From IMG/VR virus record IMGVR_UViG_3300028633_000016, positions 1-40,152 of that record: DNA of 40,152 nt; one strand, given 5' to 3'. Of this stretch, positions 498 to 26,100 are shown piece by piece. The translations under genes were made by a program, and so were the position numbers. Below the pieces are notes generated by a model. That model saw nothing but the letters and a program-made list of their open reading frames with translations. It ran no database searches and had not been told where the DNA came from. The DNA comes from a virus (Duplodnaviria; Caudoviricetes). Within the stretch, counting starts at the first letter, position 1, and every line of letters starts with the position of its first letter.

Positions 498-938
498 ATG
501 GACCCATCAAAAGAGCAAGTCAACTCAAATGAGTGCCAGGTACTCCTAGCCGCCATTCGAGCGATACAGGATGCTAATACGGAATCACACAAGGATCTTC
601 ATGATCTTATCAAGAATAGCATCAAGGGCGTTCAGGAAAATATTGACGCCAATGCGGAGGTAACACACCTTCATCTCAAAACTCAAACAGATCATCTCGC
701 AACACTGAACGGATCTGTTGCGGACCTATATCGAAAGCATGAAGAGAGAGGAAAGGTCATTAAGGAGTTTTACGCTCATAAGAATAAGTACGAGAAGCTT
801 CAGAAGACTATGGACTGGGCAAAGAGGCGTTGGTATGTGGTTGTAGGTCTCTTTTTCATAGCAATGGGAATTGCCGAGTTCATAATGGAGGTGGTAGGCT
901 TCAAAAAACTTATAAATGCAATCTGGAATAAAATATAA
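498..938 (+). CDS. Coiled-coil protein with C-terminal transmembrane helix (possible lysis accessory)
   Basis: Helical/coiled-coil body, KRRW then hydrophobic YVVVGLFFIAMGIAEFIMEVVG; sits in lysis block. Confidence 0.55.
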   Translation: MDPSKEQVNSNECQVLLAAIRAIQDANTESHKDLHDLIKNSIKGVQENIDANAEVTHLHLKTQTDHLATLNGSVADLYRKHEERGKVIKEFYAHKNKYEKLQKTMDWAKRRWYVVVGLFFIAMGIAEFIMEVVGFKKLINAIWNKI

Positions 939-942
939 AACT

Positions 943-1698
943 ATGTGCTGGGGGAAAAAATCAATAGTCTGGCCGCACCACAATAAGGTGGCGCTTCTGT
1001 TCGGGAAGAACAATACGCACTATGGAACAAACAAGTTGAGTTTTTGCGTAAATGACATCCAGTTAGCCCGAACCAAACTTGAACCGTATGGATTTCAGTT
1101 CCGGATGTTCTCAAATGAGAAAGTGACGCGAAAGAATTTTCGGGAACAACTGACCTATGCTTTTCTTAATTCTCAGCCAGGAGATATAATCTATATCAAA
1201 TACTCTGGTCACGGATCTTATATCAAGGACCTCAACAGCGACGAGATTGATGGCTTCGATGAAACCTTATACATGGATGGTCACTTCAGCGATGATGAGA
1301 CTGCAGAACTGGTTAAGCTAATTCCCGAAGGAGTCATTGTTTTGTTCTCCCTGGATTGTTGCTATTCCGGTACCAGTACCAGAAATTTCACTACGCCACG
1401 ATTCATGCCTCCGAAGAAGGAATATGCAATTCGCAGGCATATCAAAAGGCGTAGTCATGCCGACATGAAACACATGGTATTCTCAGGTTGTTCGGAGAAC
1501 GAGGTCAGCGAGGAGGCTGAAATAAATGGCACCGGATACGGGATCTTCACATACCATGAGATGACTACTCTTCGCCCGGATCTCACATACAGGAAGTGGT
1601 TTGATCAAATCCGGATGTATCTCCCGTCGAAGACATTTAAGCAAACACCGCTATTTGAGGGAAACGAAGAATACATGGATAGAATTGTCTTTCAATAA
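943..1698 (+). CDS. Caspase-family cysteine protease (peptidase C14, metacaspase type)
   Basis: KVALLFG, L..CVND, catalytic His in YSGHG, DExDGFDE loop, catalytic Cys in LDCCYSG, SGC...E.S, GIFT and QTP motifs. ATG 943 (A-rich context, just after upstream stop) preferred over 916. Confidence 0.9.
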   Translation: MCWGKKSIVWPHHNKVALLFGKNNTHYGTNKLSFCVNDIQLARTKLEPYGFQFRMFSNEKVTRKNFREQLTYAFLNSQPGDIIYIKYSGHGSYIKDLNSDEIDGFDETLYMDGHFSDDETAELVKLIPEGVIVLFSLDCCYSGTSTRNFTTPRFMPPKKEYAIRRHIKRRSHADMKHMVFSGCSENEVSEEAEINGTGYGIFTYHEMTTLRPDLTYRKWFDQIRMYLPSKTFKQTPLFEGNEEYMDRIVFQ

Positions 1699-4252: not shown

Positions 4253-4954
4253 ATGACACTGTTTGAGATGTATGAACTCATTGAGCTAGTCCTTAACAAG
4301 GATTATGGAGGCAATATTGTCACACCGGCAAGGTTCAGACAACTCATCAAGGTTGTCAACATAAACAAGTTTAAGGAGAAATACGGCCTTCCTGAAGAGT
4401 ATCAACCGGGAAGGCCGGTTCCTCTTGAGTATGCCGAGATCACCCTGAAAAACCAGGATGATCTTCGGTATTTTAAGATACCGCTAATGAATACACCCTG
4501 TCCGGTTGGATTACTCCCATATCCTGCCGATTACGCGCACAGGGATCAGATCATTTACAACCATAGCGTCACCATTGATGGCGTAGTAACCATTGTTCCA
4601 CGACAGGTGGAAGTTCTTCGGGAAACAGAAGCCGCCGGCAGGAGAGGGAACTACACAAAAAGGCCAACAGTAACCAATCCGATAGCCGTAGTCCGTAGCA
4701 CTGGGATCCAGATATATCCCGTAACGATAACGGCGGTGGATTTCACATACTACCGGTGGCCGGTAGAACCAGTCTTTGAATACAATCAGTACGAAGGGTA
4801 CATAACATATAATTCGGCTTCATCAACGGAGTTTGAGTGGCCGGAGGATGTACATATTGACCTGGTAAGGATGATGCTTGAATATTTAGGTGTAAATCTC
4901 CGGGAGGCCGATATCGTGCAGTATGCGAATACAAAGATGCAGCAGGGAATATAA
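4253..4954 (+). CDS. crAss-like tail ring / tail tubular protein
   Basis: LNKD.GG..TP..F N-terminus, IQIYP, YYR.P..P, EFEWPE..H..LV..L.YLGV pattern; position before muzzle. Confidence 0.65.
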   Translation: MTLFEMYELIELVLNKDYGGNIVTPARFRQLIKVVNINKFKEKYGLPEEYQPGRPVPLEYAEITLKNQDDLRYFKIPLMNTPCPVGLLPYPADYAHRDQIIYNHSVTIDGVVTIVPRQVEVLRETEAAGRRGNYTKRPTVTNPIAVVRSTGIQIYPVTITAVDFTYYRWPVEPVFEYNQYEGYITYNSASSTEFEWPEDVHIDLVRMMLEYLGVNLREADIVQYANTKMQQGI

Positions 4955-5783: not shown

Positions 5784-6560
5784 ATGAGCATAGAGACACC
5801 AAAAATAGCCGGGGTAGTCAGCATAAGGCAGATAGTCATGTCCACCCTCAACAGGATAAAGGACTATACCATGCGCGACTATCTTCATCTTATGCAGATA
5901 GCCATTGAAGGGTACACGGAATTAAATCTGTGGCACATGGACAACATTGAGGTTGTATATCTTCCCTTCAATCAAAACAGCAAGATTGCAACCCTGCCGG
6001 CAGACTTTGTTGACTGGCTCAAGATAGGGATCCCGGTCAATGGGAAGCTAAAGGTGTTGACCAGACACGACAAGATCCTTCTGCCACGAACTTCAACAGA
6101 CGGACTGGAAACATTCAGCAATACTGATGCGGCAGACACAACCAATGCAGAGTCTCTGGTATATTTTTCAGACCACATTCGCTGTGGTCAGTTTGTCGGA
6201 GGTCTTTTTGGTATGCCGGGAGGCATCAGCGAGGCTTCCTACCGCTTTGATAGGGAAAGAAGGACACTAGTGTTCACTGGAACCATTACGGACAACTACA
6301 TAGTCCTGGAATATATTTCTGCCGGAGTAAATCTTACTGGATCCACAACAATACCCAGAGAGGCAGAACCGGCATTGAGAACATACATTCTATGGCAGAT
6401 GGTCGAAAATGATCCAAGGGTATCCATGTCGGAGAAACAGAGACGGGAGGATAACCACGACAAGGCCGTTGCAATGCTCAGAGACTTCCAAGACACCTTT
6501 ACCGCAGAAGAATACAGGCAAATGTTATTTGGGACCTCAAGACAAACGCCGAAGAGATAA
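5784..6560 (+). CDS. crAss-like tail ring/adaptor protein
   Basis: LPADFVDW.KIG, IVLEYIS.G, IP..AE.AL..YI motifs; TAATG coupling to muzzle gene. Confidence 0.65.
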   Translation: MSIETPKIAGVVSIRQIVMSTLNRIKDYTMRDYLHLMQIAIEGYTELNLWHMDNIEVVYLPFNQNSKIATLPADFVDWLKIGIPVNGKLKVLTRHDKILLPRTSTDGLETFSNTDAADTTNAESLVYFSDHIRCGQFVGGLFGMPGGISEASYRFDRERRTLVFTGTITDNYIVLEYISAGVNLTGSTTIPREAEPALRTYILWQMVENDPRVSMSEKQRREDNHDKAVAMLRDFQDTFTAEEYRQMLFGTSRQTPKR

Positions 6561-9500
6561 TGCAGAGCAAGGATCTCCATAGGTTCAATGTAGGGATGAA
6601 TAAGGATGATTCTCCGGCTGATCTTCAGCCTGGGGAATATACTGATGCCCTGAATATGCGAATAGCCTCAAGCGACGAGCAACAGGGCTTTGGCATTATG
6701 GAGACATTACAGGGAGAAGTTGAACTTATAATCAATGTTTCTGCAGCCTACTACGGAGGAGCCATCGGGGGCCAGTTCATATACAGCGGCTATGAAGAGG
6801 TTACGATAGGCAACCAGGTGTGGATGAAGCGCAATCTGGACATTGCTTATCCCGGAAGCCGAGTTTATAATAATGATGAGGCCCAGAGAGCCATCTACGG
6901 AGGCCTATACCATCACGAACACCTTCACGATCCATTCCTTATTCCTGCCGGGTGGAGAGTGCCTACCGAGGCCGATGTTGATGAGTTGCTGACATTCTTG
7001 GGAGGTGCAATGCTAGCCGGAGGGTTATTGAAGGAGTTTGATACACCACACTGGCAGAGTCCGAATACTGGGGCAGAAGATCTGTATGGATTCCAAATGC
7101 TTCCCGGAGGAATGTTCGATTTAGTATTCAGTCTTCTAGGATTCAAGGGGAGCTTCTGGATGCTTGATGAGGCCGCTCCGGAGCCACCGGTTGCACTGGA
7201 TCCGACGGTAATTGGGGAAACCTTCTTCCTTGGATGGTGGGATCCGTCAGTAGGGGCAGACGGCTATTACCTGACAGTATCCACAGATCCTCTGTTTGGA
7301 TCAACCGTGCCTGGATTTGACGGACTTGATGTAGGCAACGTCACTCACTACAACGTAACCGGTCTGACCGATGGCGTGACATACTACTATTATGTTGAAG
7401 CCTACAATGATATAGGAGCAAGCGCGCCATCAAACATCATTACAGTTATAACCGGCAATGAAGCCGTCATTATTGGGTCCCAAATATGGATGACCAAGAA
7501 CGTAACAGTTGCTCTTCCGGACAGCTTTGTCTATGATGATGACGAAGGGAACAGGATCCTTTATGGGGGGATGTATCCGGCCTCCCTCTTTGATGCAGTT
7601 GAAGCAGCACATCCCGGCTGGATAGTACCATCGCTGGCTGACTGGCAGGCGCTTATTGACTTCGTGGGAGACTCAACTGATGCCGGAGGTATTTTAAAGG
7701 CCATTGCCGGCGGCTGGGATCCGCCAAATACGGGTGCCATTGACACCTATGCTTTTGAGGCAAGATCTACCGGATATTATATCAGCGGCATATATGCCCT
7801 TCTTGGTCAGTATGGGTTCTACTGGACCAGGACACCGGGAACTGCCGGCACAACCTACTACATGCTCTTCAGCTACGATAATGATGATCTTACTGCATCC
7901 CTGACGGCAGACGAAACATGTATTGCCATAAGGCTCATTGCTCAATATACGGCCCTTGATGCTCCGGTAGCACTACCGGCTACAAATATTACAGAAACGT
8001 CATTTACCGCAAACTGGGAAGGAGTGACAGGGGCAACCGGATACAGGTTGACGGTCGCTACCGATGCTGCATTTACGGATATTGTTGCAGGCTTTAATAG
8101 TCTTGATGTAGGGAACGTGCTTACTTATGATGTTCCGGGACTGGATATCGGACATGAATACTTTTATCGACTCACGGCTTATAATCCTGTTTATACAAGT
8201 GCATATTCAAATGTAATAGAAGTCAATCTCCCGATATCATGGACAGTGACTTCAAGGGGTGATGGATCTGGTGTTGCGGTGATGTCCATGAGAGTAACGG
8301 AACCACTTACGCTTACATTCATTGACGGAACGGCGCGGTTCTACTCTGATGCTGCTGGCACCCTTAATGAATCCACAACAAAAGTTGTTAATGCAACCGG
8401 CACGCTTCAGCCGATTTATATAAAAGCTCCATCCGGAAGTTCAACCATGCAATTTTCAAGTGCATTGTCATTATACGGATTTGGACATGCGCTCGGCCTT
8501 GGCTCAACCAACCCGGCATGGGGACGATCTACCGGAGGATCCTATGATGCAAATACTCCAGGCCTTGATGCTTCAAACTGGTATTTCCCGAATTGTATAG
8601 ACATTGGCGTTGCTTATGCTCCAATAATTACACTATTCTCTGACCTTAGCGATCTTTCCCCAAATCTCGTACGGGCAACTCTTGTTAGTGGGTCCGCTAT
8701 TACCGGAGATGTTTCTGATATAGGCAGTTCATGTGAGTTATTCGACATTGGATCTAATGCAAATATAACTGGAGATGTTGCGGATATTCCAGACTCAATG
8801 TTATACTTCGAACTTGGATCCGGAAATACATTACACGGGGATATTGCCGACCTTCCTCCAAACATACTGGATTTTAGAGTTTACGGATCAAACACTATTA
8901 CCGGAGACATCGGCAATGCTCCAGTATCTGCAGAATACTTAAACATTCACGGTAACAATACCCTGTATGGTGACATTTCGGGAGTTGGAATAAACGTAAC
9001 TGGCCTTGACATCGGTGGATTAAATACGCTCGACGGAGATCTCGCAGACCTAAGCGTAGGGATTGCCAGAGTCTGTGTTAAAGGTCATAACACAATTTAT
9101 GGAGATATTGCGGATATCCCATCTACTGTCACATACTTTTACATCGGAGGAGACAATACCATTGAAGGAAATATCACAGATCTAAAGACCGGCCTGGGAA
9201 CCTTTATAATAGCTGGGCTAAATACTATCACTGGAGATATCGCTGACATCAAGGCCACCATCACATATTTTTTCGTTGCAGGCTACAATGCTATTGCCGG
9301 GAATATCGCAAACCTAAAGACTAGTATGCGAACATTCTCTGTGTCTGGCTTTAATACGATTACTGGAGATATCCAAAACTTTCCAACAGGTCTAACCAGC
9401 GTACATCTTGCAGGATGGAATACTCTCTATGGCAACATTGAAAGCTTGCCGGCCGCTACTATAAGTTCATTTTCAATATATGGATACAACATCATCGGTG

Positions 9501-9883
9501 GAACAGTGAACGCTACATTATATGCAAATAATGTAATAAGGATTCTTGGGGTTGGGGGATATAATACTATTGCCGGCGACCTGTCGTTTATTCCGGTTAG
9601 CATTACTCAGTTTTCTCTCTCAGGATATAATGTTGTTGATGGATATACGGCCGGAAGATCATTCCCGGCAGCAATGAATTATTTGAATGTTGCTCCAATA
9701 GGTCCTGGAGGATTAAGTTCAACTGAAGTGGATAATCTTCTTATTGACCTGTCAACAAAAGTATGGCCGGCGGGAAACAAGTCAATTTCACTTCTTGGAA
9801 CAAATGCTGCGCGCACGGCAGCATCAAATATAGCAGTAGCGACTCTTATGTCACTTGGGGTTATTGTACAGACAAATCCATAA
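6560..9883 (+). CDS. Muzzle/stabilization protein fragment 1 fused to adhesin array: muzzle N-terminus, half FISUMP, FN3, full FISUMP, FN3, LRR-like solenoid
   Basis: GMNKD...L.PGEY.DALN.R muzzle-type N-terminus; IGNQVWM..NL / YGGLY / P.GWRVPT / YGF..LPGG FISUMP motifs twice; two FN3 (about 7178-7453 and 7955-8233); 22-aa repeats; LSSTEVDNLLIDL cap. Confidence 0.75.
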   Translation: MQSKDLHRFNVGMNKDDSPADLQPGEYTDALNMRIASSDEQQGFGIMETLQGEVELIINVSAAYYGGAIGGQFIYSGYEEVTIGNQVWMKRNLDIAYPGSRVYNNDEAQRAIYGGLYHHEHLHDPFLIPAGWRVPTEADVDELLTFLGGAMLAGGLLKEFDTPHWQSPNTGAEDLYGFQMLPGGMFDLVFSLLGFKGSFWMLDEAAPEPPVALDPTVIGETFFLGWWDPSVGADGYYLTVSTDPLFGSTVPGFDGLDVGNVTHYNVTGLTDGVTYYYYVEAYNDIGASAPSNIITVITGNEAVIIGSQIWMTKNVTVALPDSFVYDDDEGNRILYGGMYPASLFDAVEAAHPGWIVPSLADWQALIDFVGDSTDAGGILKAIAGGWDPPNTGAIDTYAFEARSTGYYISGIYALLGQYGFYWTRTPGTAGTTYYMLFSYDNDDLTASLTADETCIAIRLIAQYTALDAPVALPATNITETSFTANWEGVTGATGYRLTVATDAAFTDIVAGFNSLDVGNVLTYDVPGLDIGHEYFYRLTAYNPVYTSAYSNVIEVNLPISWTVTSRGDGSGVAVMSMRVTEPLTLTFIDGTARFYSDAAGTLNESTTKVVNATGTLQPIYIKAPSGSSTMQFSSALSLYGFGHALGLGSTNPAWGRSTGGSYDANTPGLDASNWYFPNCIDIGVAYAPIITLFSDLSDLSPNLVRATLVSGSAITGDVSDIGSSCELFDIGSNANITGDVADIPDSMLYFELGSGNTLHGDIADLPPNILDFRVYGSNTITGDIGNAPVSAEYLNIHGNNTLYGDISGVGINVTGLDIGGLNTLDGDLADLSVGIARVCVKGHNTIYGDIADIPSTVTYFYIGGDNTIEGNITDLKTGLGTFIIAGLNTITGDIADIKATITYFFVAGYNAIAGNIANLKTSMRTFSVSGFNTITGDIQNFPTGLTSVHLAGWNTLYGNIESLPAATISSFSIYGYNIIGGTVNATLYANNVIRILGVGGYNTIAGDLSFIPVSITQFSLSGYNVVDGYTAGRSFPAAMNYLNVAPIGPGGLSSTEVDNLLIDLSTKVWPAGNKSISLLGTNAARTAASNIAVATLMSLGVIVQTNP
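8693..9630 (+). repeat. About 14 degenerate 22-aa (66-nt) LRR-like repeats, consensus NTITGDIADLPxxxxYFxIxG
   Basis: Directly visible periodicity in the translation. Confidence 0.85.
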
Positions 9884-9886
9884 GGA

Positions 9887-11641
9887 ATGGGATTATTAGG
9901 ACGCATATTATCATTCAATCATAACAGTGCCGAGGCGGTGAAGGAAACCGTCCTGAAGACCGACTATTATTCCATTAGGCTTATAAAGGACGCTGATCAT
10001 GTCAACTCCGTATATGATTCAAGCATCACGAATATTCTTCTTAATGGCAAGTGCATTGATCCGGAGACAAGGTGCCTGTATCTATTCTATATCGATACGT
10101 TCTTTAATGCAGCTTGGATCATTGAAATCAATATTGATACTCGTGTCCAGACGGTTGTTCTCTTTGATCGCTACAATGATATAGGATTTAATCCGAAGAA
10201 CAAAATATATAATGCCAGGGTCGTTTACGGAAGGATTATCTGGACCGATAATGTTAATCCGATCTATCAGGTTGACATTAAGAGGGCGAAGAACTCTTTT
10301 CTGTATGGCATTGGATACAACCAGAACAATAACATCCAGGACTGGGAAGAGGACATCTATTACTATCCGGATCAGATTGTGGCAGAATATCAGCATTTTT
10401 ATCGCTGTCTTGTCGCAAACATTGGATTCAGTCCGCTTGCATATACCGGTTATTGGCAGCAGTTGTGCAGGATAGAGGATGCTTACTATTCGATCAAGAT
10501 AGAGAACTTCTACTTTGCTCCTATGCCACCGCTTCTGCCGCCAGTTGTAACGTATCTTCAGGATGATACTAGGAGGCTGAACAACCTTCGCCAGACATTA
10601 TTTCAGTTTGCATACAACTACATTTATATGGACTACCGGGAGAGTACATATTCCCCGGCAAGCATAGTTCCGATGCCAGATGGAGAGGAGGAGGTTGCCA
10701 CAGGCCAGCAGACCGAAGACATCTCAAAAAATAACTGTCTCAAGATCCAAGTAAATACTGGAGGCGAGGAGGTACGGAAGATCCGGATCATTGGCCGCAG
10801 TAGTGCCGATACTCTCACATGGTTTTTGGTAGAAGAGATTGACAAGTTTGATCTTGAGGAGGAACGATATTCAGCATCTCCTATAAATGACGTAGGAATG
10901 CTGACGCTTACGATAACCCTTCCATTACCGATCGTTACCGGAGAGATTGTTTCAAACGCAGTACAGATCCCGATTGCACTTTCATCCAATGCCGGGAACC
11001 AGAGAAACCTGTATTTGATGGCCACGAACACAGACTTTGAATGGGCATCGTTTGAGTTTACTGATTTCTATATTTTGACAACAACAATAACTCACTCAAC
11101 GGTTGGCAATCGTTTCTTTATAGAAAATATTCCCACCTGGTTAGGAATTGTGGATATGTCGGATATGTCCGCCGTTATAAATGGATCCGAATTTAGAAGC
11201 GGAGTACAGCTTGGCTTGTTTCCAACGTCAGAAAACTTTGGGGCAGAGAGGAGTGGGCAGATAAGGCTATACGATACTTCTGCGTACGAGAACGAACTTT
11301 TTCTTGAGGTAGTGCAACGCGCCGGCGTTACTCCGGTTAGTGTTGAGGTGGAGGTTATTCCCGGAGAGGTACATGATCTTGAGGTTAATAATAACTCTGG
11401 GAGCAATACGCCGGGATATACCTATGTAACATTCCAGTTCTTTCCAATGCACCCGGATTATGGAGGCTTTGTGGCATTCGATATGCAATATGAGTTTCTA
11501 TTAAATGGGGTTTCAAACGGGACTGGATTTGTTACAGTATATAACACCCTGTTATGTAACACCGGGGATCACATGCTGGTGGCATCAGCCCCCGGAGATG
11601 TGGTTACAGTTCACCTCTGGGAGAATCCGAAACCAACATAA
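9887..11641 (+). CDS. Muzzle fragment 2: FISUMP C-terminal strand, beta-propeller region, CBM-like insert, C-terminal BACON/Ig-like appendage
   Basis: Starts ...KTDYYSIRLIKD (FISUMP terminus); IIWTDNVNP and FQFAY.Y.Y.D.RES.YSP muzzle motifs; W...YY...IV..Y..FYRCL..N....P....YW module at about 10343-10465; P.WL...N.G.ERSG.I...VQ.A BACON-like region. Confidence 0.7.
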   Translation: MGLLGRILSFNHNSAEAVKETVLKTDYYSIRLIKDADHVNSVYDSSITNILLNGKCIDPETRCLYLFYIDTFFNAAWIIEINIDTRVQTVVLFDRYNDIGFNPKNKIYNARVVYGRIIWTDNVNPIYQVDIKRAKNSFLYGIGYNQNNNIQDWEEDIYYYPDQIVAEYQHFYRCLVANIGFSPLAYTGYWQQLCRIEDAYYSIKIENFYFAPMPPLLPPVVTYLQDDTRRLNNLRQTLFQFAYNYIYMDYRESTYSPASIVPMPDGEEEVATGQQTEDISKNNCLKIQVNTGGEEVRKIRIIGRSSADTLTWFLVEEIDKFDLEEERYSASPINDVGMLTLTITLPLPIVTGEIVSNAVQIPIALSSNAGNQRNLYLMATNTDFEWASFEFTDFYILTTTITHSTVGNRFFIENIPTWLGIVDMSDMSAVINGSEFRSGVQLGLFPTSENFGAERSGQIRLYDTSAYENELFLEVVQRAGVTPVSVEVEVIPGEVHDLEVNNNSGSNTPGYTYVTFQFFPMHPDYGGFVAFDMQYEFLLNGVSNGTGFVTVYNTLLCNTGDHMLVASAPGDVVTVHLWENPKPT

Positions 11642-11653
11642 AAATAAAGAGAT

Positions 11654-12082
11654 ATGGCAAGCATTGTACCAAGATTTGTAAAGAAGGAGATAGTGGATGG
11701 ATGGGTAGCAGAGAACCTGTATCTCATGCTACTCTCCAGTGCATATACTCCTAATGCCACAACGCATCAATATGTATCCCAGGTATCTGCGAATGAGGTT
11801 GTGGATAGCGGAGGCATATATCCGGTTGGAGGTGTCCCGCTAGCAGGAAAACTTCAGGGATATGATCCGATCAGCGTGAACAATGCCTTCCTTGATGCGA
11901 ACAATGTAAGCATCGGGCCAGGCGCAACTCTCAATTATCGTTATGGTGTGATCTACCGCAATACTGGAAACCCGGCAACATCCCCAATCAGATGCGTCAT
12001 TGATTTTGTGACAAATCAGATTGTGACAAATGGGACAACTGTAATCAACTGGAACGCACTTGGAATAATTTATATTTCGTAA
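11654..12082 (+). CDS. Phage minor structural (fiber/adaptor-type) protein
   Basis: LMLL.S.YTP....H......NEV...G.Y..GG..L, F.DA..V, R.GVIY, IDF.....T.G...I.W...GI pattern of a widespread ~140-aa virion family. Confidence 0.6.
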   Translation: MASIVPRFVKKEIVDGWVAENLYLMLLSSAYTPNATTHQYVSQVSANEVVDSGGIYPVGGVPLAGKLQGYDPISVNNAFLDANNVSIGPGATLNYRYGVIYRNTGNPATSPIRCVIDFVTNQIVTNGTTVINWNALGIIYIS

Positions 12083-12083
12083 G

Positions 12084-14762
12084 ATGATTTACGGACATAA
12101 CCGAAATATTGACATCAATTTCTACAATGATCGGGTAAAGGAGTTCATTGCAGAGGAGGGATTTACTAATCCTTTCAGCTATGTGCCTATTAAGGCAGCG
12201 CACATGGAGGTTGTGTCCGGCAAGTCCGGGAGTGCAGTTGTTTTCGGAAATATTACCGAAGGATATGATCCGGTTGAATTGAGGGTTGAAGTCGAAAAGA
12301 ATTATACTGACATTGCTACTGAGGCTGCAAATATTCCGTTGCTGGTGGATAAGTATATCTCCGGGATATATTACTATGACTGGGATCATCCTCTTAATAC
12401 CTCTGGGGGATTAAATCTTCAAATAAGAGTAGTGAGAGTATATCTAATTCAAATCCCATATTATGTCAGGGAAGATGCGTTTTATTTCATAAATGTAGAA
12501 GGAGTAGGATCTGTCTCATACCAGGTGGGGGCAGGGGAAACCGGCCTGGATGTAAAGACTGCTCTGGAGGCAGCACTAACTGCATCTCCCGTATTTGGTC
12601 CGAGTAGTTTTGTGGCAGGGCCAAATCCATTAACGATCTATTTTTATAATCTCAGCAAGATCTACTGGGGTGGGACATTGGCAAATGAGTGGCCTGTAAT
12701 AACAGACGAGATGATCTTCCCGTATAATGTTACGGCCTACTGCCTAGATCTTGGTCTTACAACGAAATTTCCAATCCTCAAATATGGAGCAACACATGAC
12801 TTCGGGATTGTCTATAAGGATAAAATAGGCCGGAGATGTTCGGTTCTTCGCACGAAGAACATGAGTTTCTATCTGCCATTCTACTGCGAGGATCCGGCCA
12901 TACTTATGAATACCATTGCTTCGGTTACATTTAAGCTGAACCATCTTCCTCCCGTTTGGGCAGAGGCATACGAGATTGTTTATGCCGGCAATGCCTCAAT
13001 GGACTACTGGCTTCAGATCCGGATAAATGACATAAACGATCTGGGAGATGATAGGTTTGCTATAAACATCCAGGATAACCTTAACTGGACCAGGGAAAAC
13101 AACATGCGTTGGAAAGTGCCTGATTATGTATGGGAAGACGGCGACCGGATACGGCTCATTGGTACGATAACGAACGCTGGAGGAGTAGTAACGGTATATA
13201 CAACCGACGAAGGACATGTTTATGATTATGAGATCGAGGAAACGGCAGCAAGCGAACTTGCAGAGGAGATTGGAGGTGACTGGCTTATTGTTCAAGCAGC
13301 AATAAGACCGGCGTCCTTCGACGGAGAAACTGATATCATCGCGGAGATATATCGTCCGAAAAAGGGCATAGGAGTTTCCGTATATCAAGGAACCGGGATG
13401 GCGTTTGAGATTGGTGTTGATGAAAATGGAAACCGGTATCATAAGGGGGATGTTGATCAGGTTTTGAGTTCGGCCGGAGGATCGCTTACTCCTGCGGAGA
13501 TTTATAACACCGCAAATGATTCATGGAAGTATGAGCGCATAAGCTATGTATCAGAAGCCGTTGATCCGGCAGGCTCATTCTGGGCATTTTGGGCAGAGAG
13601 TCCATTCCCTAGTGACTGGTGGAGAGACATTACCAAATTAACATCTCAGGGTTGGCCATTCCTCTATGACATCATGCAGCAGCAGGTTACTCTGGGAGAA
13701 AGGCTGAGGCACGGAGGATTCCTTATCGAAGGTACCCGGATCAATAACATTGCCTGGTTTACCTATGAAAAGTTCATGGATCTTCCACAGAGATATGGTG
13801 ATATCACAGCATTGAGAGAGATTGGCTTTACTCTAAAGGTTCTGCAGACACATAAGGAGTCGAGTATCTATCTTCAGCGCGTACAGACATTCAGCGCAGA
13901 TGGAGGCGAAGGGGACTATAGCCTAATCAACAATCTTCTTGGTACATTCCGTCCGCTTGAAACAGACTTTGGTTGCCAGCATCCAGACAGTGTAATGGTC
14001 AATGACCGCAACTTGTATTACTGGGACAATAATGAGGGCAAGTTTATAAGATCTTCTCCGAACGGACAGATAGCTATCTCTGACTATAAGATGAGGAGAT
14101 GGTTCAGGGATCTCCGAAACTGGATTGAGGCGCTTGAGGGTACAGATAAATTGCTCGTCAATACAGGCGCTAACGTGGAGCATAATGAAGTATGGGTCAC
14201 ATGGAATATCAACGGAACAGTATGGGGAGCGATCTTCAGCGAAACAAACGGCCGATGGATATCCAGACTTGATCAGATCACTGAATCTTATGTTCACCTG
14301 GGGCAATGGTTCGCGCACATGTACAAACAGCGTCTATACATCATGAATGAGGATGAAGGACAGAACTGGCTTGAGTGGGCCAATGTTCCTACCTATGCTG
14401 ATGTACAGTTTGCCGGCAACATAAATGTGGCAAAGAATAAAGTATTTAATTCCCTGGCAGTTTATGCAGACCATCAGCTTGACTGCCTGTCCCGATTTAT
14501 TATAATCCCGGCAGAAGCATCATTTGAACTTATGGAAAGCTATGTTGCGATATGGAATAAATCAGAGGGAATTTATTATGGCCGAATACTTAAAGATCAA
14601 AATAGTCCTGGTAGCTTTGTATCCGTACATGACCAAACAATGAATGGAAGGGAAATGAGGGGTAGGTATTGCCTAGTCCGGTTAAGGACTAACGAGCATG
14701 AGGAGAAGGTCCGCATCTTCTCTGTCATAGTTATATCAACAGATAGTGAAAGAAGTGCATAA
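12084..14762 (+). CDS. Muzzle/stabilization protein fragment 3 (C-terminal portion)
   Basis: FYND, VP.KA...EV....VFGN..EGYD, FGIVY.D..GR, YG.I..L, FGCQHPDSV, YYWD...G, KVFNSL, MRGRY motifs. Confidence 0.75.
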   Translation: MIYGHNRNIDINFYNDRVKEFIAEEGFTNPFSYVPIKAAHMEVVSGKSGSAVVFGNITEGYDPVELRVEVEKNYTDIATEAANIPLLVDKYISGIYYYDWDHPLNTSGGLNLQIRVVRVYLIQIPYYVREDAFYFINVEGVGSVSYQVGAGETGLDVKTALEAALTASPVFGPSSFVAGPNPLTIYFYNLSKIYWGGTLANEWPVITDEMIFPYNVTAYCLDLGLTTKFPILKYGATHDFGIVYKDKIGRRCSVLRTKNMSFYLPFYCEDPAILMNTIASVTFKLNHLPPVWAEAYEIVYAGNASMDYWLQIRINDINDLGDDRFAINIQDNLNWTRENNMRWKVPDYVWEDGDRIRLIGTITNAGGVVTVYTTDEGHVYDYEIEETAASELAEEIGGDWLIVQAAIRPASFDGETDIIAEIYRPKKGIGVSVYQGTGMAFEIGVDENGNRYHKGDVDQVLSSAGGSLTPAEIYNTANDSWKYERISYVSEAVDPAGSFWAFWAESPFPSDWWRDITKLTSQGWPFLYDIMQQQVTLGERLRHGGFLIEGTRINNIAWFTYEKFMDLPQRYGDITALREIGFTLKVLQTHKESSIYLQRVQTFSADGGEGDYSLINNLLGTFRPLETDFGCQHPDSVMVNDRNLYYWDNNEGKFIRSSPNGQIAISDYKMRRWFRDLRNWIEALEGTDKLLVNTGANVEHNEVWVTWNINGTVWGAIFSETNGRWISRLDQITESYVHLGQWFAHMYKQRLYIMNEDEGQNWLEWANVPTYADVQFAGNINVAKNKVFNSLAVYADHQLDCLSRFIIIPAEASFELMESYVAIWNKSEGIYYGRILKDQNSPGSFVSVHDQTMNGREMRGRYCLVRLRTNEHEEKVRIFSVIVISTDSERSA

Positions 14763-17168: not shown

Positions 17169-20100
17169 ATGGAGAAGAAACGCAAGAAAGAAGAGGTTCC
17201 GGAACAGGCACCGCAGATCCCGGTTGAACAACCAACGCAGGATTATACTCCCGATCAGCAAAAGGTAAGGAAAGATCTCTACTTTAGGGATAGGGATACG
17301 TTCTTTGCAGACGAAAGGCTATATCGCCAGGATAGCGTCACGCAACGGGAAACGCTTGGGAAATTCTTCGATAACTTTTCCGTGTCGTATTACAATGACA
17401 TGGGCCTCACTGATGTCAATACCATTAAGGAGTTAAGGCAAAAGTTTATTGACGATAACATTGGCAAGTTAAGTCTTGCAAAAAAAAAAGAGGTCGAAGA
17501 ACAACCCACAGAAGTTCCGGAAGTCGATTATCCAGACTTTGTGGACAAATCTCAAATCTCAAATCAATTCTATTCAAGACAGGACATAATTAAGCCTGTC
17601 ATCAGCGATACCTATCTCAACAAGGCAAATGAAGGATACAAGGCCGTTCGTGCGGAAGAGGAGAAGATAGCCGGCGTTGTTCCGAAGCTTCTTGAACACC
17701 CCGATTACAACTATATTAAGACCAATCCAGAACAGTATGTCCTACTGGAGGGATTCGGAGAAAAGAAGAAGGTTGAGAAATACCTGAAAGAGCAGGGGAT
17801 TCCGAAGGAGGAGCGTAGCCGGATACTGGATATGCTTCATTATACTGCCACCCGTAGCAATATTGAGAAATTAAAAGCTGCATGGGATCCGGAGAAACTT
17901 AATTTGGCAGTAGATCAGGAGGCCGTTCCCTATGTTAAGGATGTCAAGCCAGGAACATTCATTGATCCTCTTACCGGTCAGAGGAAGCTGCAACCTGAAA
18001 CCGAAGAGGATGCGGATCAATTAGCGCTTATCCAGAAATATATGCAGGAGATCCGGAACGGAGCAATCGCTTCATCCCCGGACAATCCTCTGTCAAAAAA
18101 GAAAGAGCAGATTGATCAGAAACAAGATCAACTAGTTGAGGCATATCAACAGGTAGAAGAACTCCGAAAGGTTGCCCAGGATTCACTTAAAGGAGCATTG
18201 ATAGCTACTAGTCCGGAGGTGGATGCGTGGAAGAAAGCACAGATAGATCTCATTAAAATGCAATCAGATCTTGAGAAAGAGATCAATGATTTCAATGAGG
18301 CTATTGATACTGATAAGAATATAGCAGGAGCTATAACCGGAAATCCCTCCGATAAGCAGAGACTGCAGCAGATAGTCCAGGATTCATTTATTGAAAAGAA
18401 GTTTTGGGATAAAGAATATGACAGACTCAATAAGATATACAAGGAGACTTCAACTCCTTATGCAGATCCAGAACAGGCCGCAAGGACTATAGGGTTCCGG
18501 CCGGCACCAATATCTCCGGCAATGGAGAACGCCAGACGTATGAAGTATGAGAAAACAGCCATGTTTGAGGCCGCATCCCGTATGTATTACGCCAATGAGG
18601 GACCGATGGATATCAAGAAAGATGCAAAATATCAGCTTGAAGTATTGGGTGACGCTATCCTGAAGGGAGTGTCTCATCAGGATATCCTTGGGGACAAAGT
18701 AACGGAGCAACAGGTTCTCATGAAAATGGGCGAACTTGGAATGAGAGAGGGTCTTCTTACTGATGAGGAATTAGACTATATCACTCCCGGATTCCTTGAG
18801 CAAGTAATGTCATTCTCAGGATCCTTGGCGGCAGATCTCCCCATGCTTATGCTTGTCGGCGGAGCAACGAATGCCGTAAAGTCCATTCCTCTTATCAGCA
18901 AGTTACGCTATGGCCATAAGGTCATCCAGAACCCTGTATTGAAGGAGGCCGGCAAGCCTCTGACCAGGACACTCCGGTTCGCAGACCCGGTGCCTACCGG
19001 ATGGAAGGTCATCAGCGAGGTCAAGCCAACCGCTATAAGCAAGCTGAAGGGTACGATTATCTCATCTGTTATTGACGAAGCGGCATTTACGGGGATGATG
19101 GGGATGACTCCGGGGTTTATGACCGGTATCAATACTGCTCACTTATTTCTCCCAGAGGTTAAGCTGAAGGGAAAATGGGGAAATATCCTTCAGCCATTTA
19201 TAGACACAGTATATAAGAGTGCCATCGGTGCAACAGCCGGGATGGAGGCCGGTCTTGCAACAACCGCTATGGCTAACGCCCTGCTCTCTGATAGTACCAT
19301 CAAGCAGGAGATGGATAATCTCTATCCTAATCTTGATGAGGTAACAAAGAGGGTGCTGGTAGAACTTACCGTCAATGGGATCTTCTTTGGTGGCATGGGA
19401 GCATTGACAACCGGAAGCCAAAAGGCAATGACAGCACCCCTTGGGGCTAAATGGGGTAAGTCTGGAGGTACGTCCTGGACGGCGTATTTTAATCCAAAAA
19501 TGAGGGCCAGAGTATTTGAGGCCGCGAGAACCGCAGACTCAAAGGGATATACTGATACTGCGAAGGAACTATACCGGTGGCTTGACATGACTAAGGAGCC
19601 GATCACAGGCAAAGATCTGAAAATGCAGAGGCTCGCAGAAGTTGAGGGATATGCGAGATCACTGCCGGTTGGTACTCTCCGGATGGCCGTTGATGCCAAT
19701 AGGGATGCGATCCGTGTTCTGGAGAACCTGAATAATGATCCTAATTTTGACGGATATGTGACCATCAAGACATCTTCCGCAAAGGATGTAAAGCCTACGG
19801 ATGTTGTTCAAATGGACGGCAAATATTATGAAGTAAGCGAGATTGCCAAGGGGAAAGATGGTAAGCCGATTGAGTTTACTCTTATCGATATTGAAAGTGG
19901 CCAAAAGACAAAGGCATTAACAGAAGATGTCAAGACCGACATCTACTATAAGGTAGGCAGCCGCCTTGAACTTGGTCTTCGACTTGAGAACCATTACGAG
20001 AGACTACAAGTCTTCAACGAGGTACTTGCCGACAAAGGATTCTATGGCAAGGAGGCCCAGGCGCTCATGGCCGGGCCACCGCCTCCAAAAGGATTAGGCC

Positions 20101-23100
20101 GGGCAACTGGAACATTCTATGTTAAGCCACCGGAGCCTACAAAGATCGAAAAGAGGTTGAAGCGACTGGAGGCCGATAAGGCCGAGATGCAGAAGGCCGG
20201 CATTGAGCCTATTGAGATGCCGGAGAAGCTTCGCAAAGAATATCCATACGGAGAACCGGAGAAACTTATGGAGACTCCGGCCGGCAAATTTTCAGAGAAC
20301 CTTGCCAAGGCACAGGAACTACTTTCAAAGGAGACCGAGAATATTGACAAGAAGCTGGGCGAACTGAACAAGCAGTTGGAGGGATATTCCAAAAGAGAGT
20401 TCCGGAAGGAGAGGGAACTGGCCAGGGAAGAGATCCAGAGACTTGAATACGCCAAGCAGGAACTTGCATTAAAGTTTGAGAAAGAGTTCGACCAGTTCTT
20501 TACCGACAGCATGCCTGTAATAGAGAGCCACATCAAGGGCAAAGGAGATTTCAGCAATGAAGAAATAAAGGAGATCATTGGAATTGCCTGGGATAAGATT
20601 ACAAACCCATCCAAGGAAACCAAAGATCTGAGCATTGGAGAGATCTTCGACCAGAGCATCGCGGAGTTTACCGGAGAAAAGCCAGATGTCAAACCGGTAG
20701 AGCCAATGGACCGCATGAGAGAGATTGAGGCAATGGCAAAGGCCGAAGGATATACTTTTACTGTCAATCCTGATGCTGACCCTGACCGGACCGTTGTTGA
20801 TGTGGCAGACGCAGAGGGAAGGATCATTGACTGGGATGAACTACCAAGGGGTATCAGAGAGATGGCCGAGGAATTTTCCGAGTTAATGCACAAGGAAGAG
20901 ATAGCGACAGGGGGAGAGCCTTCCGGAAAATTCCAGGATGATTATACTCCGACACAAATAAAGGGAATGTATGAGTTCTTTGGAGTCAAATTTGATCGAG
21001 TAACCGTTATTCGGATGCCCGATGGTGCTTATCGTATTAAGTTTGATGAAGAGGATCCTATCTTTATACGAAGCAATGAAGATCTAATAGCTGAGTTTCA
21101 GAAGAGAACCGATGCGGATGTTGCAAAGATTAAGGAACAACTGACACAGAGGGGAATAAATATTCAGAAAAAAGAAACTACAAAAAAAATAATACCTACT
21201 GCAAAGCCTCAGTTCCCAGAGGGATTTAAGTCCACGATTACCAGCAAGACTGACAAGATGGGCGTAAATAAGTTTACTTACGCACTATATGAGCCTGACG
21301 GGAAGACGAAGGTATCTCAACTTACCTTCGATATTGAGGAAAAAATGGGCGAGAAGTGGTTGTCTGCACCTCAGATAGTCACTGTAACCGGACAGGAAAA
21401 GAAGGGATATGCTACCGAACTCTATAAATATGCCCTTCAGAATATGCCGGAAGGCATAAGCGGCATATATTCAATAGCATCAGAGATCCATGACAAGGGG
21501 GCCGTCGGCGCCATCCATGACAAGCTTGCCCAGTTCTATAATATCAAGGTACTGGAGAATGGTGACAAGATCATAAGGCCTAAAAAGGCCGAAGAGGCTA
21601 CAAAGGGAGTGGATCCGGAGGAGAGAAGAAGGTTTGTCAATAACCAGTTAGTTTCTCTGGCGTTGGAATATAATGCTTCCGGGAGGGTGGCCGACAAAAG
21701 GAATATCCTTCAGCGAATAAATTCCTTGGCAAGCGAGATCGGCTATACCGTTAAGATGGACGGCAAGACTGTTGTTGTTCTTAACGAGAAGGGGAAAAAG
21801 GCCCGGAGCATCAGCTTAAAAGAGGCCTATGATACCCTTGAAACAATAGATGATCCCGGATTCAAAGAGTTTCTGGGACAGGCCATAAACGCATGGGAGT
21901 TTTTCTATAGCATAGATGCTCCGGCAATGGGCGAGGTTGGCCTTAAAACTGCCGCAGAGATCCTTTTGGCCGGGAGGGGTACCAAGCATACCCAGTTGCT
22001 TGTTGATGCCTTACGGCAGATGTATCAGCGCGGAGAACTGGTATTCGACGATCCCTTTGGGACAAAGATGTATCATCCGGTTGCGGAGTACATGGAATAC
22101 ATCAAAGGAGTGAAAGCCGAAGCCTGGACTAATTTCATTGCAGAATATGGAGATCTCACCATTGAGAATGTTGAGGAAGCCGCCAAAAGAAGGATCATTG
22201 ATAAAGCAGATGTCCAGTTATACAAACAAGCAATAGCAGAAGAACATGAAATCAGAAGAAAGCTTGAAGCAGAATGGGCCGCAGAAGAAGCGCGACGTGC
22301 CGCCGGAGGAATTAGCGAAGAAGACAATGCGCCTGATGTGGTTAAAGGCAAGGGTGCAGAGCCTAAAGAACCAGCGCCTAAACCAAGTCCCGAACCAAAA
22401 GAATACAGGTATCAGTTAACTCTCCGGCCGGCCTCAGAAGGAGGTTATCCAAAAGAAGGTCTTGTTAAAGTAGAACTAGAACCTGGTCAAAAATTTGAAA
22501 CGCTCATATATGACAGAAAACTTACAGCTAAAGAGCGTGGTCATTTTGATTTGCGACCACTAACTGAGATCGCTGACATCAAGGGAAAAGACCTGGTTGA
22601 CAAGGATGGTAATTACAGTAAGATCAGCCTTAAATGGCATGAGATGGGATCTGCTGATGTCTCCATGTATGACATGGATGGGGAGTTGGTGGAGAAGCCA
22701 TTTATGATGAGTGCTGATGACATCCTCCGGAATATTGAAACCGGTTATTGGATTGTTCAGGAAGAAAAGCCAGCACCTAAAGAAAAGCCAGTAGAACCTA
22801 CGAAACCCGGTAAGCCAGCCAAGAAGCAAGTAGACATAGCCAAGGATCTCAAGGACATGAAGGATCTCCTAAACTTATTAGGAGGTCCGGATCCGGCAGG
22901 GTTTGGCATGGAAGGTGGCGGTGAGGACGAGATGAAGGTCCGCATGAACATGATGGCCACAAAGATGATCGGTAAGTTTGCGGAAGCCGGGATAACGAAC
23001 TTTGAGGATATGCTTGAGCAGATCATTCCTCAACTGGACGCACCTGTATTACAGAGATTACTTCCATTTATCAAGCAGGGATTTGGAGCATTATCCATGA

Positions 23101-26100
23101 ACTCCACTGATGAGATCATGGAGAAGATGTCCGCGCAACTTCCATTTGTGAGAAAGTTCGGACAGACTGAATTAGATAACCTTATTGCCAGAATGAACGC
23201 ACCGGAAGAGACTGCAGATGATTTCTCCGATGTTATTGGCAAAGAGTTCCGCATAATAAAGAATAGCAAGAGAATAACAATACACCACGTTGAAGAATGG
23301 GGAGAGGCTGAATACTTTAAGAATGTAAAGGCCCATGACGGACTCTTTGCAGAGGAGCAGAAATTCCCGATGCTTGTGGTTGCATTTGACAGGGAGCCGT
23401 TCAAGTACGCAAAACTTGAGACCCTGCGTAAAGGAATTGCAAGTGGTCAGATAGTAGAGATAGTCCCAAAGCCGGAGTACAATAATCCTGAAAGGACGGA
23501 AGCCTATAACAAGATCGCACAGGAATTTGAGAAACTTGGGGATAGGGAAATGGCCGAATGGATCCGGGGAAGAGCAAAGGTAGAGCCGGCCAGAGGATTG
23601 ACACTGGAGAAGGATATTGAAAACCTGAAAGCATGCGTGAGCGAACGGAAACTTGAACTCCAGGTTAAATATGGGGAGATATGGTTTGAGCCAAAGCCGT
23701 TTACACCACTGACCGCAAAGAACCTGTTTGGCATTATTGACAGGGTAGATGAATCCGGGGATCCGTTGGAGCCTTACATCATGGCCAATGTGCCGGCAGA
23801 GACATTAAAGAAGGTCCTAGATTTACTGAATGAGGTAAATCGTTGGAAGGCATTTATCGGTATGCCACAGGACGGGATCCTTCCATATAGGTTCCTGCAG
23901 AACCAGTTTGGAGGTATTGCCCCGATAGATCTTCTTCTATTTCTTGGGCAAGAAGCCAGAAGAATAGCAAAGGGAGACAAGCGCACAAAGCCAGAGAAGA
24001 TACAGCAGAGACTGAAACAACTGGACGAGGCCATAGTTGCCGGAGAGAAAAAGCTTATTGACCTGAAAAAGTATCTGTTTACACACAGGATAGCATACTA
24101 CCTCAACAATGGTGTTGCAATAGGCAATGTTGGAGATCTGAAACGGATGGCAAAGGAAGACTTTGGCATTACGGACCTGACTACCATCCGGGATCAAGCA
24201 GAGATGGCTCTGACCATGCTGGCAAAAAGAATCGCACAGAACAGCACTATTGACTTCTCTGATCGCTTCTACCGAATTGTTGCGTTATATGAATCCTTCC
24301 CATTGCAGGACAGGCTTGCAACGAGCCAGGTCAAGGAATTAAAGCAGTTCAGTACTCCGGTCCCCTTGGGATTTCTTATGGGCGCATATACAAACTCCGA
24401 TGTCGTGCAGTCTGTATTGGATCCTACCGGAGGACATGGGGCGTTGGTGATATTTGCAAACACAAAGAATGTTCGCATTAATGAGATAGATCCAAACCGG
24501 TTCCAGAGCCTGTTATCGCAGGGATATCGCGTCACAAATTATGATGCCAGGGAAAGCCTCAAGGGAAAACTGGATCCGTCAATTTTCTATGCAGTCAATA
24601 CAAATCCTCCGTTCGGCCTTGACGTGGAGGGAGACTTTAAGGGTGCAGGGAAATATCCCTACACTCTCTCCGGTACGCACTATATGGTGGCTCTGGCTCT
24701 GGAGAACATGGCAGATGAAGGTAAGGCCGCAGTCATCATTGGTTATCACACCAAGTTCGACAAGGACGGATACATGACGGGCGAAGATCTCAAATTCTTC
24801 AACTGGCTTCACTCCAATTTTTATGTAGAAGATGTCATCCAGATTGCCGGAGATCTTTATAGCAAGATGGGAACCTCATTTCCAACACGACTTATTCTCA
24901 TCAATGGAAGGAAGCCGGCATTTGAAGGATTCGCACCACAGAGAACGGAGAATGATGTTCCTCTTAATAACTGGACAGACGTATTCAATCGAATAACGAA
25001 AATAATATCAGATCCACATGAAAAATCTATTCTACAATCCAAGGTGGATGCCATCGGAAGGGACGGTACGTCTGTTCGCAGTACCGATTCATCCAAACCA
25101 AAAAATACAGAAGATATCGGACCTGTACAGCCCCCTCCGGGAGAGGTACCTGGCACTCCTGGCGAACGTCCCGGAGAGACAAAGAAGCCGACTATTGGAG
25201 ATGTACCTAAATCTGCCCCCGGAGAGGACGTTGAGCGCCCAGGTGGACCAGATACTGAGTTGCCCACAGATGATAAGTCACCTAGGGGCATTGAGAACCC
25301 GTTTAAAAGACCAACCCCAGTCGATAGGGGAGAAATACGGCCCCCAGCAAATCCAGGCGATCTTCCACCAGACAGATCTAGAGAGCCTATTGAGCGAACT
25401 GGAAGATCCCTCGGACTCATAGATCGGGAGAGTGATGCGGTAATCCCCTATGTGCCGTTAAGCCGGATCCCCTCCGGAAACGAGATGGTACCGGGAGCGA
25501 TGGCGCAACAGCTTGAGGATGCGTTAATGCAACTCAAGGCAGAGGTTGGCGACATAGATGAATACGTTATGCAGAAACTCAAGTATAATAGTCTTGAGCA
25601 TCTCGCAAGTGCCTTCTATGGCTCACAGGTTGATGGCGTAGCTATGTCCATATTCAACATTGAGAATGGTGATGCAACCATTATCGGGGACCAGACGGGC
25701 GTTGGCAAGGGAAGGATAGCTGCCGGAGCAGTCGCTTATGCTATTGAGAACGGATTTACACCGATATTCATTACGAAGACCGCCAATCTATTCACGGATA
25801 TCTACCGCGACTTGTTTGATATAGGTAAGGCTGACTATGTGCCATTCATTATAAACAAGGAATATGGAGGAGAGGTAACAAAGATCTATAAGCCAAACAG
25901 CGAAGAGGTCATGTTCACCTGGGATCCCAAGAAATATGAGGCCGCAATAGCTAAAGGTGAACTTCCAAAGGGAACACATTTCGTCATTGCAACCTATTCC
26001 CAATTTAATACAGACAAGGGAAATTCACTCAAGCGCAGAGAGTTCCTTCTCAGCTTGGCTCCTAATGCCGTGTTTATCATGGACGAGAGCCACGATGCTT

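What the first reader, a model, noticed from the sequence alone, without database searches (positions are those of the whole stretch)
7172..9886. A 2712-nt insert cuts a FISUMP domain, and the halves rejoin without gaps
Seen: FISUMP #1 stops at ...GSFWMLDE (GAG 7169-7171) and jumps into FN3. The missing end appears after the stop: TAA GGA ATG gives G-MGLLGRILSFNHNSAEAVKETVLKTDYYSIRLIKD, in the same frame. Joining 7171 to 9884 gives WMLDEGMGLLGRILSF...SIRLI. This has the same W-to-IRLI spacing (35 residues) as intact FISUMP #2 (WTRTPGTAG...AIRLI), and the 'intergenic' GGA supplies the Gly at the matching position. Inference: the insertion point is defined to about one codon, and the split lectin-like domain could act as an interlocking clasp between two gene products. 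I see no terminal repeats or recombinase gene.
Basis: partly seen in the sequence, partly recalled or inferred. Interest (0 to 1): 0.85.

Follow-up and report, generated by a model that had tools for sequence, protein, structure and literature searches.

The report
Split lectin domain clasps phage tail
In this uncultured phage and its relatives, the tail-tip "muzzle" protein is encoded as three separate genes, and a lectin-like domain is divided between the first two so that its halves likely lock the two proteins together while the freed end carries interchangeable, probably host-binding, modules.

Summary
Observation confirmed; the "insert" framing is not. The window encodes a crAss-muzzle-like tail protein as three genes: A (6560-9883), B (9887-11641), C (12084-14762). 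Relatives make it as one chain of about 1200 aa without FISUMP. FISUMP#1 is an insertion in the muzzle; its last ~35 residues begin gene B. Half A + X + B1-36 scores 97.6 bits against 83.2 for half A alone (0 of 2166 controls reach it). The halves co-fold (ipSAE 0.87, best control 0.00). All 26 distinct loci with both halves are split; spacers run from -4 to 3696 nt, 19 of 26 are out of frame, and GGA occurs only here. So the Gly is chance, and splicing, hopping or excision are very unlikely. The cargo after the break varies (FN3, FISUMP, Lcl, LRR). Four natural fused proteins are scattered among split relatives. Best reading: a two-gene clasp by strand complementation that frees a C-terminus for swappable cargo; binding is predicted, not shown. 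Published precedent: the split nozzle of phage A1002. This scan already reported the same arrangement on other DNA. New variant of a known kind.

The parts
6560..6739 (+). Gene A residues 1-60: N-terminal segment of the muzzle (ring-joining part by position in crAss001 gp44; inferred)
   Evidence: Profile of 43 muzzle relatives (A5) matches A1-60 at positions 1-59, E 2e-10; weak Pfam crAss_MUZ 9-70, E 0.016
6800..7171 (+). Gene A residues 81-204: N-terminal part (socket) of FISUMP#1
   Evidence: Pfam PF09603 profile 1-153/187, E 1.5e-17; 62% mean identity over 24 relatives
7172..9883 (+). Variable cargo of gene A: FN3, intact FISUMP#2 (about 7457-7951), FN3, then an LRR-like solenoid with a 22-residue period; stop codon
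   Evidence: Pfam; 66-nt repeat spacing; Atlas look-alikes are viral hypothetical and LRR_4 clusters, 0.91-0.92
9884..9886 (+). 3-nt intergenic spacer GGA; not conserved, not coding
   Evidence: Spacer table of 26 loci
9887..9991 (+). Gene B residues 1-35: C-terminal part (plug) of FISUMP#1
   Evidence: HMM test; co-fold contacts at B5-20 and 22-35; Met 28-29 residues before the SVR motif in 34 of 34 database proteins checked
10019..10876 (+). Gene B residues about 45-330: muzzle propeller blades and most of Ig-like domain 1
   Evidence: A5 profile 44-304, E 3e-77; PHROG 14478; BLASTP to unsplit muzzles
10877..11641 (+). Variable C-terminal extension of B; starts with one or two short beta-strand-and-proline motifs, then Ig-like or FN3 cargo in relatives
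   Evidence: B length 370-1230 aa in relatives
11654..12082 (+). Small conserved gene (PHROG 644) between B and C; possible chain-like fibre subunit (lead only)
   Evidence: a hit in 22 of 23 loci with B and C; Atlas nearest named cluster GP4 fibre gp80, score 0.86; no PDB or Pfam support
12084..14762 (+). Gene C: rest of the muzzle; starts with the strand that ends Ig-like domain 1 in unsplit relatives
   Evidence: A5 profile 299-1147, E 3e-215; junction comparison with nine unsplit muzzles

Best explanation
A crAss-muzzle-like tail-tip protein is encoded as three separate genes (A, B, C), and a FISUMP domain inserted near the muzzle's N-terminus is divided between A and B; the halves are predicted to refold into one domain by strand complementation, which would clasp the two chains and leave A's C-terminus free to display swappable, likely host-binding, cargo. 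Shown: three ORFs mapping in order onto one-chain muzzles; the FISUMP break at the same loop across the clade; variable cargo after it; natural fused forms with cargo inside the same loop. Predicted: the A-B interface. Inferred: B is started on its own Met, often by translational coupling to A's stop; A is held a second time through its N-terminal muzzle segment; six copies sit on the tail tip as in the crAss001 hexamer; the cargo binds host surface. History (inferred): FISUMP entered the muzzle, cargo entered a surface loop of FISUMP, and a stop and start behind the cargo has been gained or lost several times.
For: Muzzle identity: A5 profile hits crAss001 gp44 (7qok) at E 8e-29; Foldseek top hits for the model of unsplit P0053 (pLDDT 88) are 7qol and 7qok, E 1e-34. 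A, B and C tile unsplit relatives: in P0053, A1-54 maps to 1-54, B54-319 to 71-334, C4-891 to 345-1195. Domain completion: 97.6 bits vs controls. Co-fold of A72-204 with B1-38: ipSAE 0.87, best of 3 controls 0.00, runs agree in at least 99% of contacts, partner pLDDT at least 84; the mark was reached by 116 of 157 solved complexes and 2 of 215 mismatched pairs, counts that hold only roughly with my own alignments. No solved relative of the A half was found by sequence, but halves of a split domain tend to pass by likeness to known folds. Split in 26 of 26 distinct loci with both halves, frame lost in 19, stop and start overlapping in 13. The plug is conserved: 57.5% mean identity over 38 rows against 22.7% for the same stretch of 12 cargo FISUMPs; pN/pS 0.39 with pS near saturation. 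Cargo changes faster than the clasp: L047/L048 are 95% (socket), 97% (plug), 100% (muzzle) but 37% (cargo) identical; means over 210 pairs are 62, 54, 67 and 24%. Fused P0002, P0014 and P0042 carry cargo between the halves in one chain; P0014 and P0042 run through where six split loci with the same Lcl-like cargo stop. The B/C break repeats the design in 23 of 23 loci with both. Precedent: A1002 gp39/gp42 complement each other's strands by cryo-EM (PMC13730344).
Against: No experiment on binding, virion location or cargo function. The 12 cargo FISUMPs are paralogues of unknown age, so the conservation contrast is not a clean test. A could be held mainly through its muzzle segment, which was not modelled. 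Cargo identity still tracks muzzle identity somewhat (Spearman 0.48), so swapping is partial. The tree is the quick one with an open base, so the direction between split and fused is not settled.
Confidence: 0.8

Rival explanations
1. Three-gene muzzle held together mainly by the muzzle's own ring-joining and propeller contacts; the split FISUMP is a passive remnant that refolds but does little.
For: A keeps a conserved muzzle segment (54.5% identity); the B/C split needs no FISUMP; P0045 has an intact FISUMP joined to B.
Against: Both halves are kept at 58-62% identity across the clade, and the Met-to-SVR distance is fixed at 28-29 residues in 34 of 34 proteins.
Confidence: 0.12
2. The cargo is removed at RNA level or skipped by the ribosome (intron, hopping), giving a joined chain with an intact FISUMP, alone or beside the split form.
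For: In the window the halves are in frame and the spacing matches FISUMP#2.
Against: 19 of 26 loci out of frame; whole genes between the halves in L051, L020, L054; third codon positions before the break are not conserved (mean top-base frequency 0.49); no Rfam match; in RNA-library run X16 one contig crosses the A break (7036-7476) and one the A/B border (9779-9929) unspliced, and no joint was seen in the 3 of 4 runs with cover (low-depth contigs that may hold DNA).
Confidence: 0.03
3. The 2712 nt are a mobile or excisable DNA cassette switched by recombination.
For: The left border is fixed to the codon after the WxxD[ED] motif in relatives and cargo varies.
Against: No border repeats; no joints in 4 of 4 DNA runs, all possibly the window's source and contigs only; the right border varies; none of the 73 close loci examined holds a cargo-free fused form.
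Confidence: 0.03
4. Assembly error or recent nonsense break.
For: Metagenome assembly of an uncultured phage.
Against: Same sequence in one piece in runs X1 and X9; same split across diverged relatives at 53-68% identity.
Confidence: 0.01

Closest known systems
Split nozzle of Pseudomonas podophage A1002 (gp39 nozzle-rope + gp42 nozzle-base; PMC13730344; abstract, passages and sections 11-12 read)
   Same: A one-chain nozzle divided between genes; missing beta-strands supplied by the partner; the extra part carries host-recognition appendages; small fibre genes gp40 and gp41 are numbered between the halves.
   Different: Two pieces, broken in the nozzle's own platform and propeller. Here three pieces, and the first break lies inside an acquired lectin-like domain; cargo is fused to A and varies across a clade.
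Muzzle gp44 of Bacteroides phage crAss001 (PDB 7QOK/7QOL; PMC10172136, passages read)
   Same: Homologous by profile (E 8e-29) and fold (E 1e-34); same place behind ring-protein-like genes.
   Different: One 1371-aa chain; the paper notes insertions in the crass and IG2 regions, not a split or a FISUMP in the passages read.
gp97 of Cellulophaga phage phi38:1 (Pervagoviridae)
   Same: Nearest annotated phage hit (29% over 117 aa); matches A5 profile 6-1138.
   Different: Single 1324-aa ORF with no FISUMP.
Fib_succ_major / Lcl (DUF1566) domains as CLec2 targets of diversity-generating retroelements (PMC5758913, passages read)
   Same: Same domain families; supports the C-type-lectin-like reading and a display role for the cargo.
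   Different: No reverse transcriptase among the 27 window proteins scanned; the plug, which lies in the C-terminal stretch that such elements vary, is conserved here.

Membership tests
crAss-type muzzle / podophage nozzle | Sequence and fold homology to gp44 | tested here: met
   (through unsplit relatives)
crAss-type muzzle / podophage nozzle | Single polypeptide | tested here: not met
   Three ORFs
crAss-type muzzle / podophage nozzle | Hexamer at the tail tip | not testable with these tools
   Needs a virion structure
Fib_succ_major (PF09603) | Score above the curated cut-off, 33.9 bits | tested here: met
   A half 64.9 bits
Fib_succ_major (PF09603) | Full-length domain including the C-terminal SVR strand | tested here: met
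   Only with B1-36 added, custom HMM; the join was not scored with Pfam's own model
Fib_succ_major (PF09603) | Ligand (sugar) binding | not testable with these tools
   Fold class taken from PMC5758913; no ligand data
A1002-type split nozzle | Pieces complement each other's beta-strands | tested here: inconclusive
   Predicted for the FISUMP halves; muzzle-to-muzzle contacts were not modelled
A1002-type split nozzle | Rope that docks gp80-like fibre dimers | tested here: inconclusive
   Atlas 0.86 to a gp80 cluster; no PDB or Pfam hit
Self-splicing intron / translational bypass | Frame kept across the gap, conserved junction signals, RNA family match | tested here: not met
Intein (cis or split) | Intein domain, N-terminal Cys/Ser and C-terminal His-Asn | tested here: not met
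   Cargo ends of 27 gene A copies; no intein family in 26 cargos
Crassvirales | Capsid, portal and terminase phylogeny | not tested
   These genes were not identified in the window
Crassvirales | Virion RNA polymerase | tested here: inconclusive
   The 5078-aa protein has helicase, DarA_C and LPD38 domains and no match to one narrow DxDxD pattern; the genome is partial

The most novel reading that the evidence does not exclude
The split FISUMP is a dedicated plug-and-socket adaptor: a 35-residue tag on B captures a 125-residue socket on A tightly enough to work outside the muzzle, and phages of this clade switch between split and fused states while exchanging receptor-binding cargo on a standard tail-tip mount.
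Probability: 0.35. Interest if true: 0.72.

Novelty: new variant of a known kind. Interest (0 to 1): 0.5.

Why it matters
It shows how an essential virion protein can gain free ends for host-recognition modules: by breaking at surface loops and letting the next gene supply the last strands. It extends the A1002 split nozzle from one phage to a clade with three pieces and a break inside a borrowed domain. It also gives a small natural peptide-and-domain pair that can be tested in a tube. For annotation, such ORFs are neither pseudogenes nor introns.

Tried and rejected
Gly from the spacer: rejected. Border repeats, promoters, terminators: none above chance. AlphaFold2 of fused P0042: mean pLDDT 65.5, both FISUMP halves mostly under 60, so inconclusive; the N-terminal residues of the B rows were misplaced in that alignment, and its fold search gave nothing at E<=0.001. 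A search for free-standing FISUMP relatives gave 1 protein, so the HMM was built from 12 cargo domains of related loci. Raw-read run X21 had no cover. PDB sequence searches with FISUMP#2, the B profile and the A profile found nothing significant. Gene C found no annotated phage. The gp80 link of the small gene was not confirmed. Extra socket-only genes between A and B were sought in 13 loci and not seen. The careful tree did not finish; the quick tree was used. The motif coordinates printed were mis-indexed and were redone. Literature: five searches listed no title or abstract on a split FISUMP or a three-gene muzzle; of the four papers I saw the listing only; most subscription papers and all supplements were not seen.

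Full report
Setting. The window is a phage morphogenesis and replication module on one strand. ORFs at 4253 and 5784 match virion structural PHROGs; ORFs at 9887 and 12084 both match PHROG 14478, at profile 164-278 and 964-1151; the N-terminus of the 6560 ORF weakly matches Pfam crAss_MUZ. Runs holding the stretch are labelled activated sludge, digester and wastewater, 14 of them possibly its source. One relative lies in a Prolixibacteraceae genome bin (L058), which fits a Bacteroidota host (inference).

Observation. Coordinates, frame and spacing are as reported. Pfam's FISUMP model stops at position 153 of 187 in A1-204 and does not see B1-36 alone. I built an HMM from 12 intact FISUMP domains found in the cargo of related loci. 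Half A scores 83.2 bits, its native continuation 84.0, and half A + X + B1-36 97.6, aligned to the model's end; 0 of 1666 window 36-mers and 0 of 500 shuffles reach that. The Gly is incidental: intact spacing is 33-38 residues and 0 of 12 intact domains have Gly at that place.

What the protein is. A profile search of 1.84 billion representatives returned 1181 hits, of which the best 150 were listed. They include one-chain proteins of about 1190-1250 aa in which A1-56, B from about 45 and all of C follow each other without FISUMP. A profile of 43 relatives hits crAss001 muzzle gp44 at E 8e-29, and the model of P0053 (pLDDT 88) finds 7qol and 7qok first. The profile maps A1-60, B28-333 and C2-891 to positions 1-59, 44-304 and 299-1147. 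So FISUMP#1 is an insertion near the muzzle's N-terminus, and the muzzle is broken twice. By the domain limits in PMC10172136 (passages read), the second break falls in Ig-like domain 1, with C supplying its last strand (inferred from the junction comparison with nine unsplit muzzles).

Conservation of the split. Four scans gave 138 loci (one search kept 80 of 140). I examined the 73 close ones, none fused. After removing duplicates, 26 hold both halves, the window's own contig included; L052 dropped out because its B start equals that of L046. All 26 are split. Spacers are -4 (4), -1 (9), +1 (2), +2 (3), +3 (4), +9 (2), 989 and 3696 nt; 7 keep the frame; GGA occurs only here. The 20 nt before 38 B starts are AT-rich with no Shine-Dalgarno-like word, and most window starts are similarly A-rich. 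In L051, L020 and L054 several whole genes lie between A and B. B and C are separate in 23 of 23 loci that hold both, of 39 examined; 21 are 431-468 nt apart, the size of the small PHROG 644 gene. Read checks show no joints: 3 of 4 RNA-labelled runs had cover, and contigs of X16 cross both borders unchanged; 4 DNA runs agree with the window. These are contigs, so they show presence, not absence.

Cargo. It starts right after the WxxD[ED] motif in 26 of 27 gene A copies (L009 has a further insertion upstream). It ranges from 79 to 903 aa, with FN3, intact FISUMP, Lcl_C or LRR hits in 23 of 26 scanned and none in 3. Socket, plug and muzzle average 62, 54 and 67% identity over 210 pairs of 21 loci, cargo 24%; L047 and L048 share 95-100% in the first three and 37% in cargo. 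Cargo identity still correlates with muzzle identity (Spearman 0.48).

Fused forms. Of 17 longer relatives, 2 are A-cargo-B fusions (P0002, P0014), 14 start at the plug and 1 is N-terminally short. P0042 is a third fusion, and the fragment P0045 has an intact FISUMP running into B. P0014 and P0042 read through at the site where six split loci with the same Lcl-like cargo stop. In a quick tree of 74 rows the four are scattered, each beside Met-start forms with SH-aLRT 97-100. Split and fused states have therefore interchanged more than once, by fission, fusion or recombination; the direction is open. Their DNA context was not seen.

Structure. A72-204 with B1-38 scored ipSAE 0.87 (runs 0.87, 0.87, 0.84) against 0.00 for the best of 3 controls, with about 160 confident contacts, at least 99% agreement and partner pLDDT at least 84; B7-8 and B27-33 pack on A199-200, A116-117 and A87-88. 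The tool's mark was reached by 116 of 157 solved complexes and 2 of 215 mismatched pairs, only roughly valid with my own alignments. Halves of a split domain tend to pass by likeness to known folds, although no solved relative was found by sequence. This supports binding and does not show it.

Mechanism. Most likely (0.8) A, B and C are made separately; B's first 35 residues complete A's FISUMP; C's first strand completes B's Ig domain; the new C-termini of A and B carry cargo on the tail tip. The three genes, fixed break points, variable cargo and fused relatives are shown; the interface is predicted; virion location, copy number and host binding are inferred. Rivals: passive remnant (0.12), splicing or hopping (0.03), DNA cassette (0.03), artefact (0.01).

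Comparison. It works like the split nozzle of phage A1002, whose two chains fill each other's missing strands and carry fibre dimers (PMC13730344). It differs in having three pieces and a break inside an acquired domain. It is homologous to crAss001 gp44 but is not one chain; membership of Crassvirales was not tested, and the nearest annotated hit is the unsplit gp97 of Pervagoviridae phage phi38:1. Five literature searches listed nothing on this arrangement; supplements were not seen. After I had formed my reading, the scan's own index showed the same three-way split and split FISUMP reported on other genomes; these are unchecked notes and not independent support.

Verdict. Real, clade-wide and explained by protein complementation, not by an excisable insert. 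New variant of a known kind; interest 0.5.

Noticed in passing
window 10877-12082: B's extension begins with one or two short strand-and-proline motifs in most relatives, followed by the small conserved gene whose nearest named Atlas cluster is GP4 fibre gp80 (0.86). This may be a short rope with a chain-like fibre dimer, as in A1002.
   Followed up: partly
L009 6199-7998: An Lcl-like domain sits at a second place inside FISUMP#1, about 20 residues before the usual break.
   Followed up: no
L051 168-1940 and L020 153-1307: The cargo FISUMP appears circularly permuted: model positions 53-197 come before 2-53.
   Followed up: no
L051 1942-5640, L020 1270-6917, L054 1702-4856: Genes with signal-peptide-like N-termini lie between A and B.
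   Followed up: no
P0055: An unsplit muzzle without FISUMP carries an Lcl_C domain at residues 115-182, a separate insertion in the same N-terminal region.
   Followed up: no
window 17169-32405: 5078-aa protein with DarA_C, strawberry-notch helicase and LPD38 domains, a likely ejected polyvalent protein.
   Followed up: no
window 916-1698: Caspase-family (Peptidase_C14) gene upstream of the tail genes.
   Followed up: no
L006 5671-6483 and L008 4404-5096: Extra ORFs among the ring-like genes that look like homing endonucleases (recalled motif, not tested).
   Followed up: no
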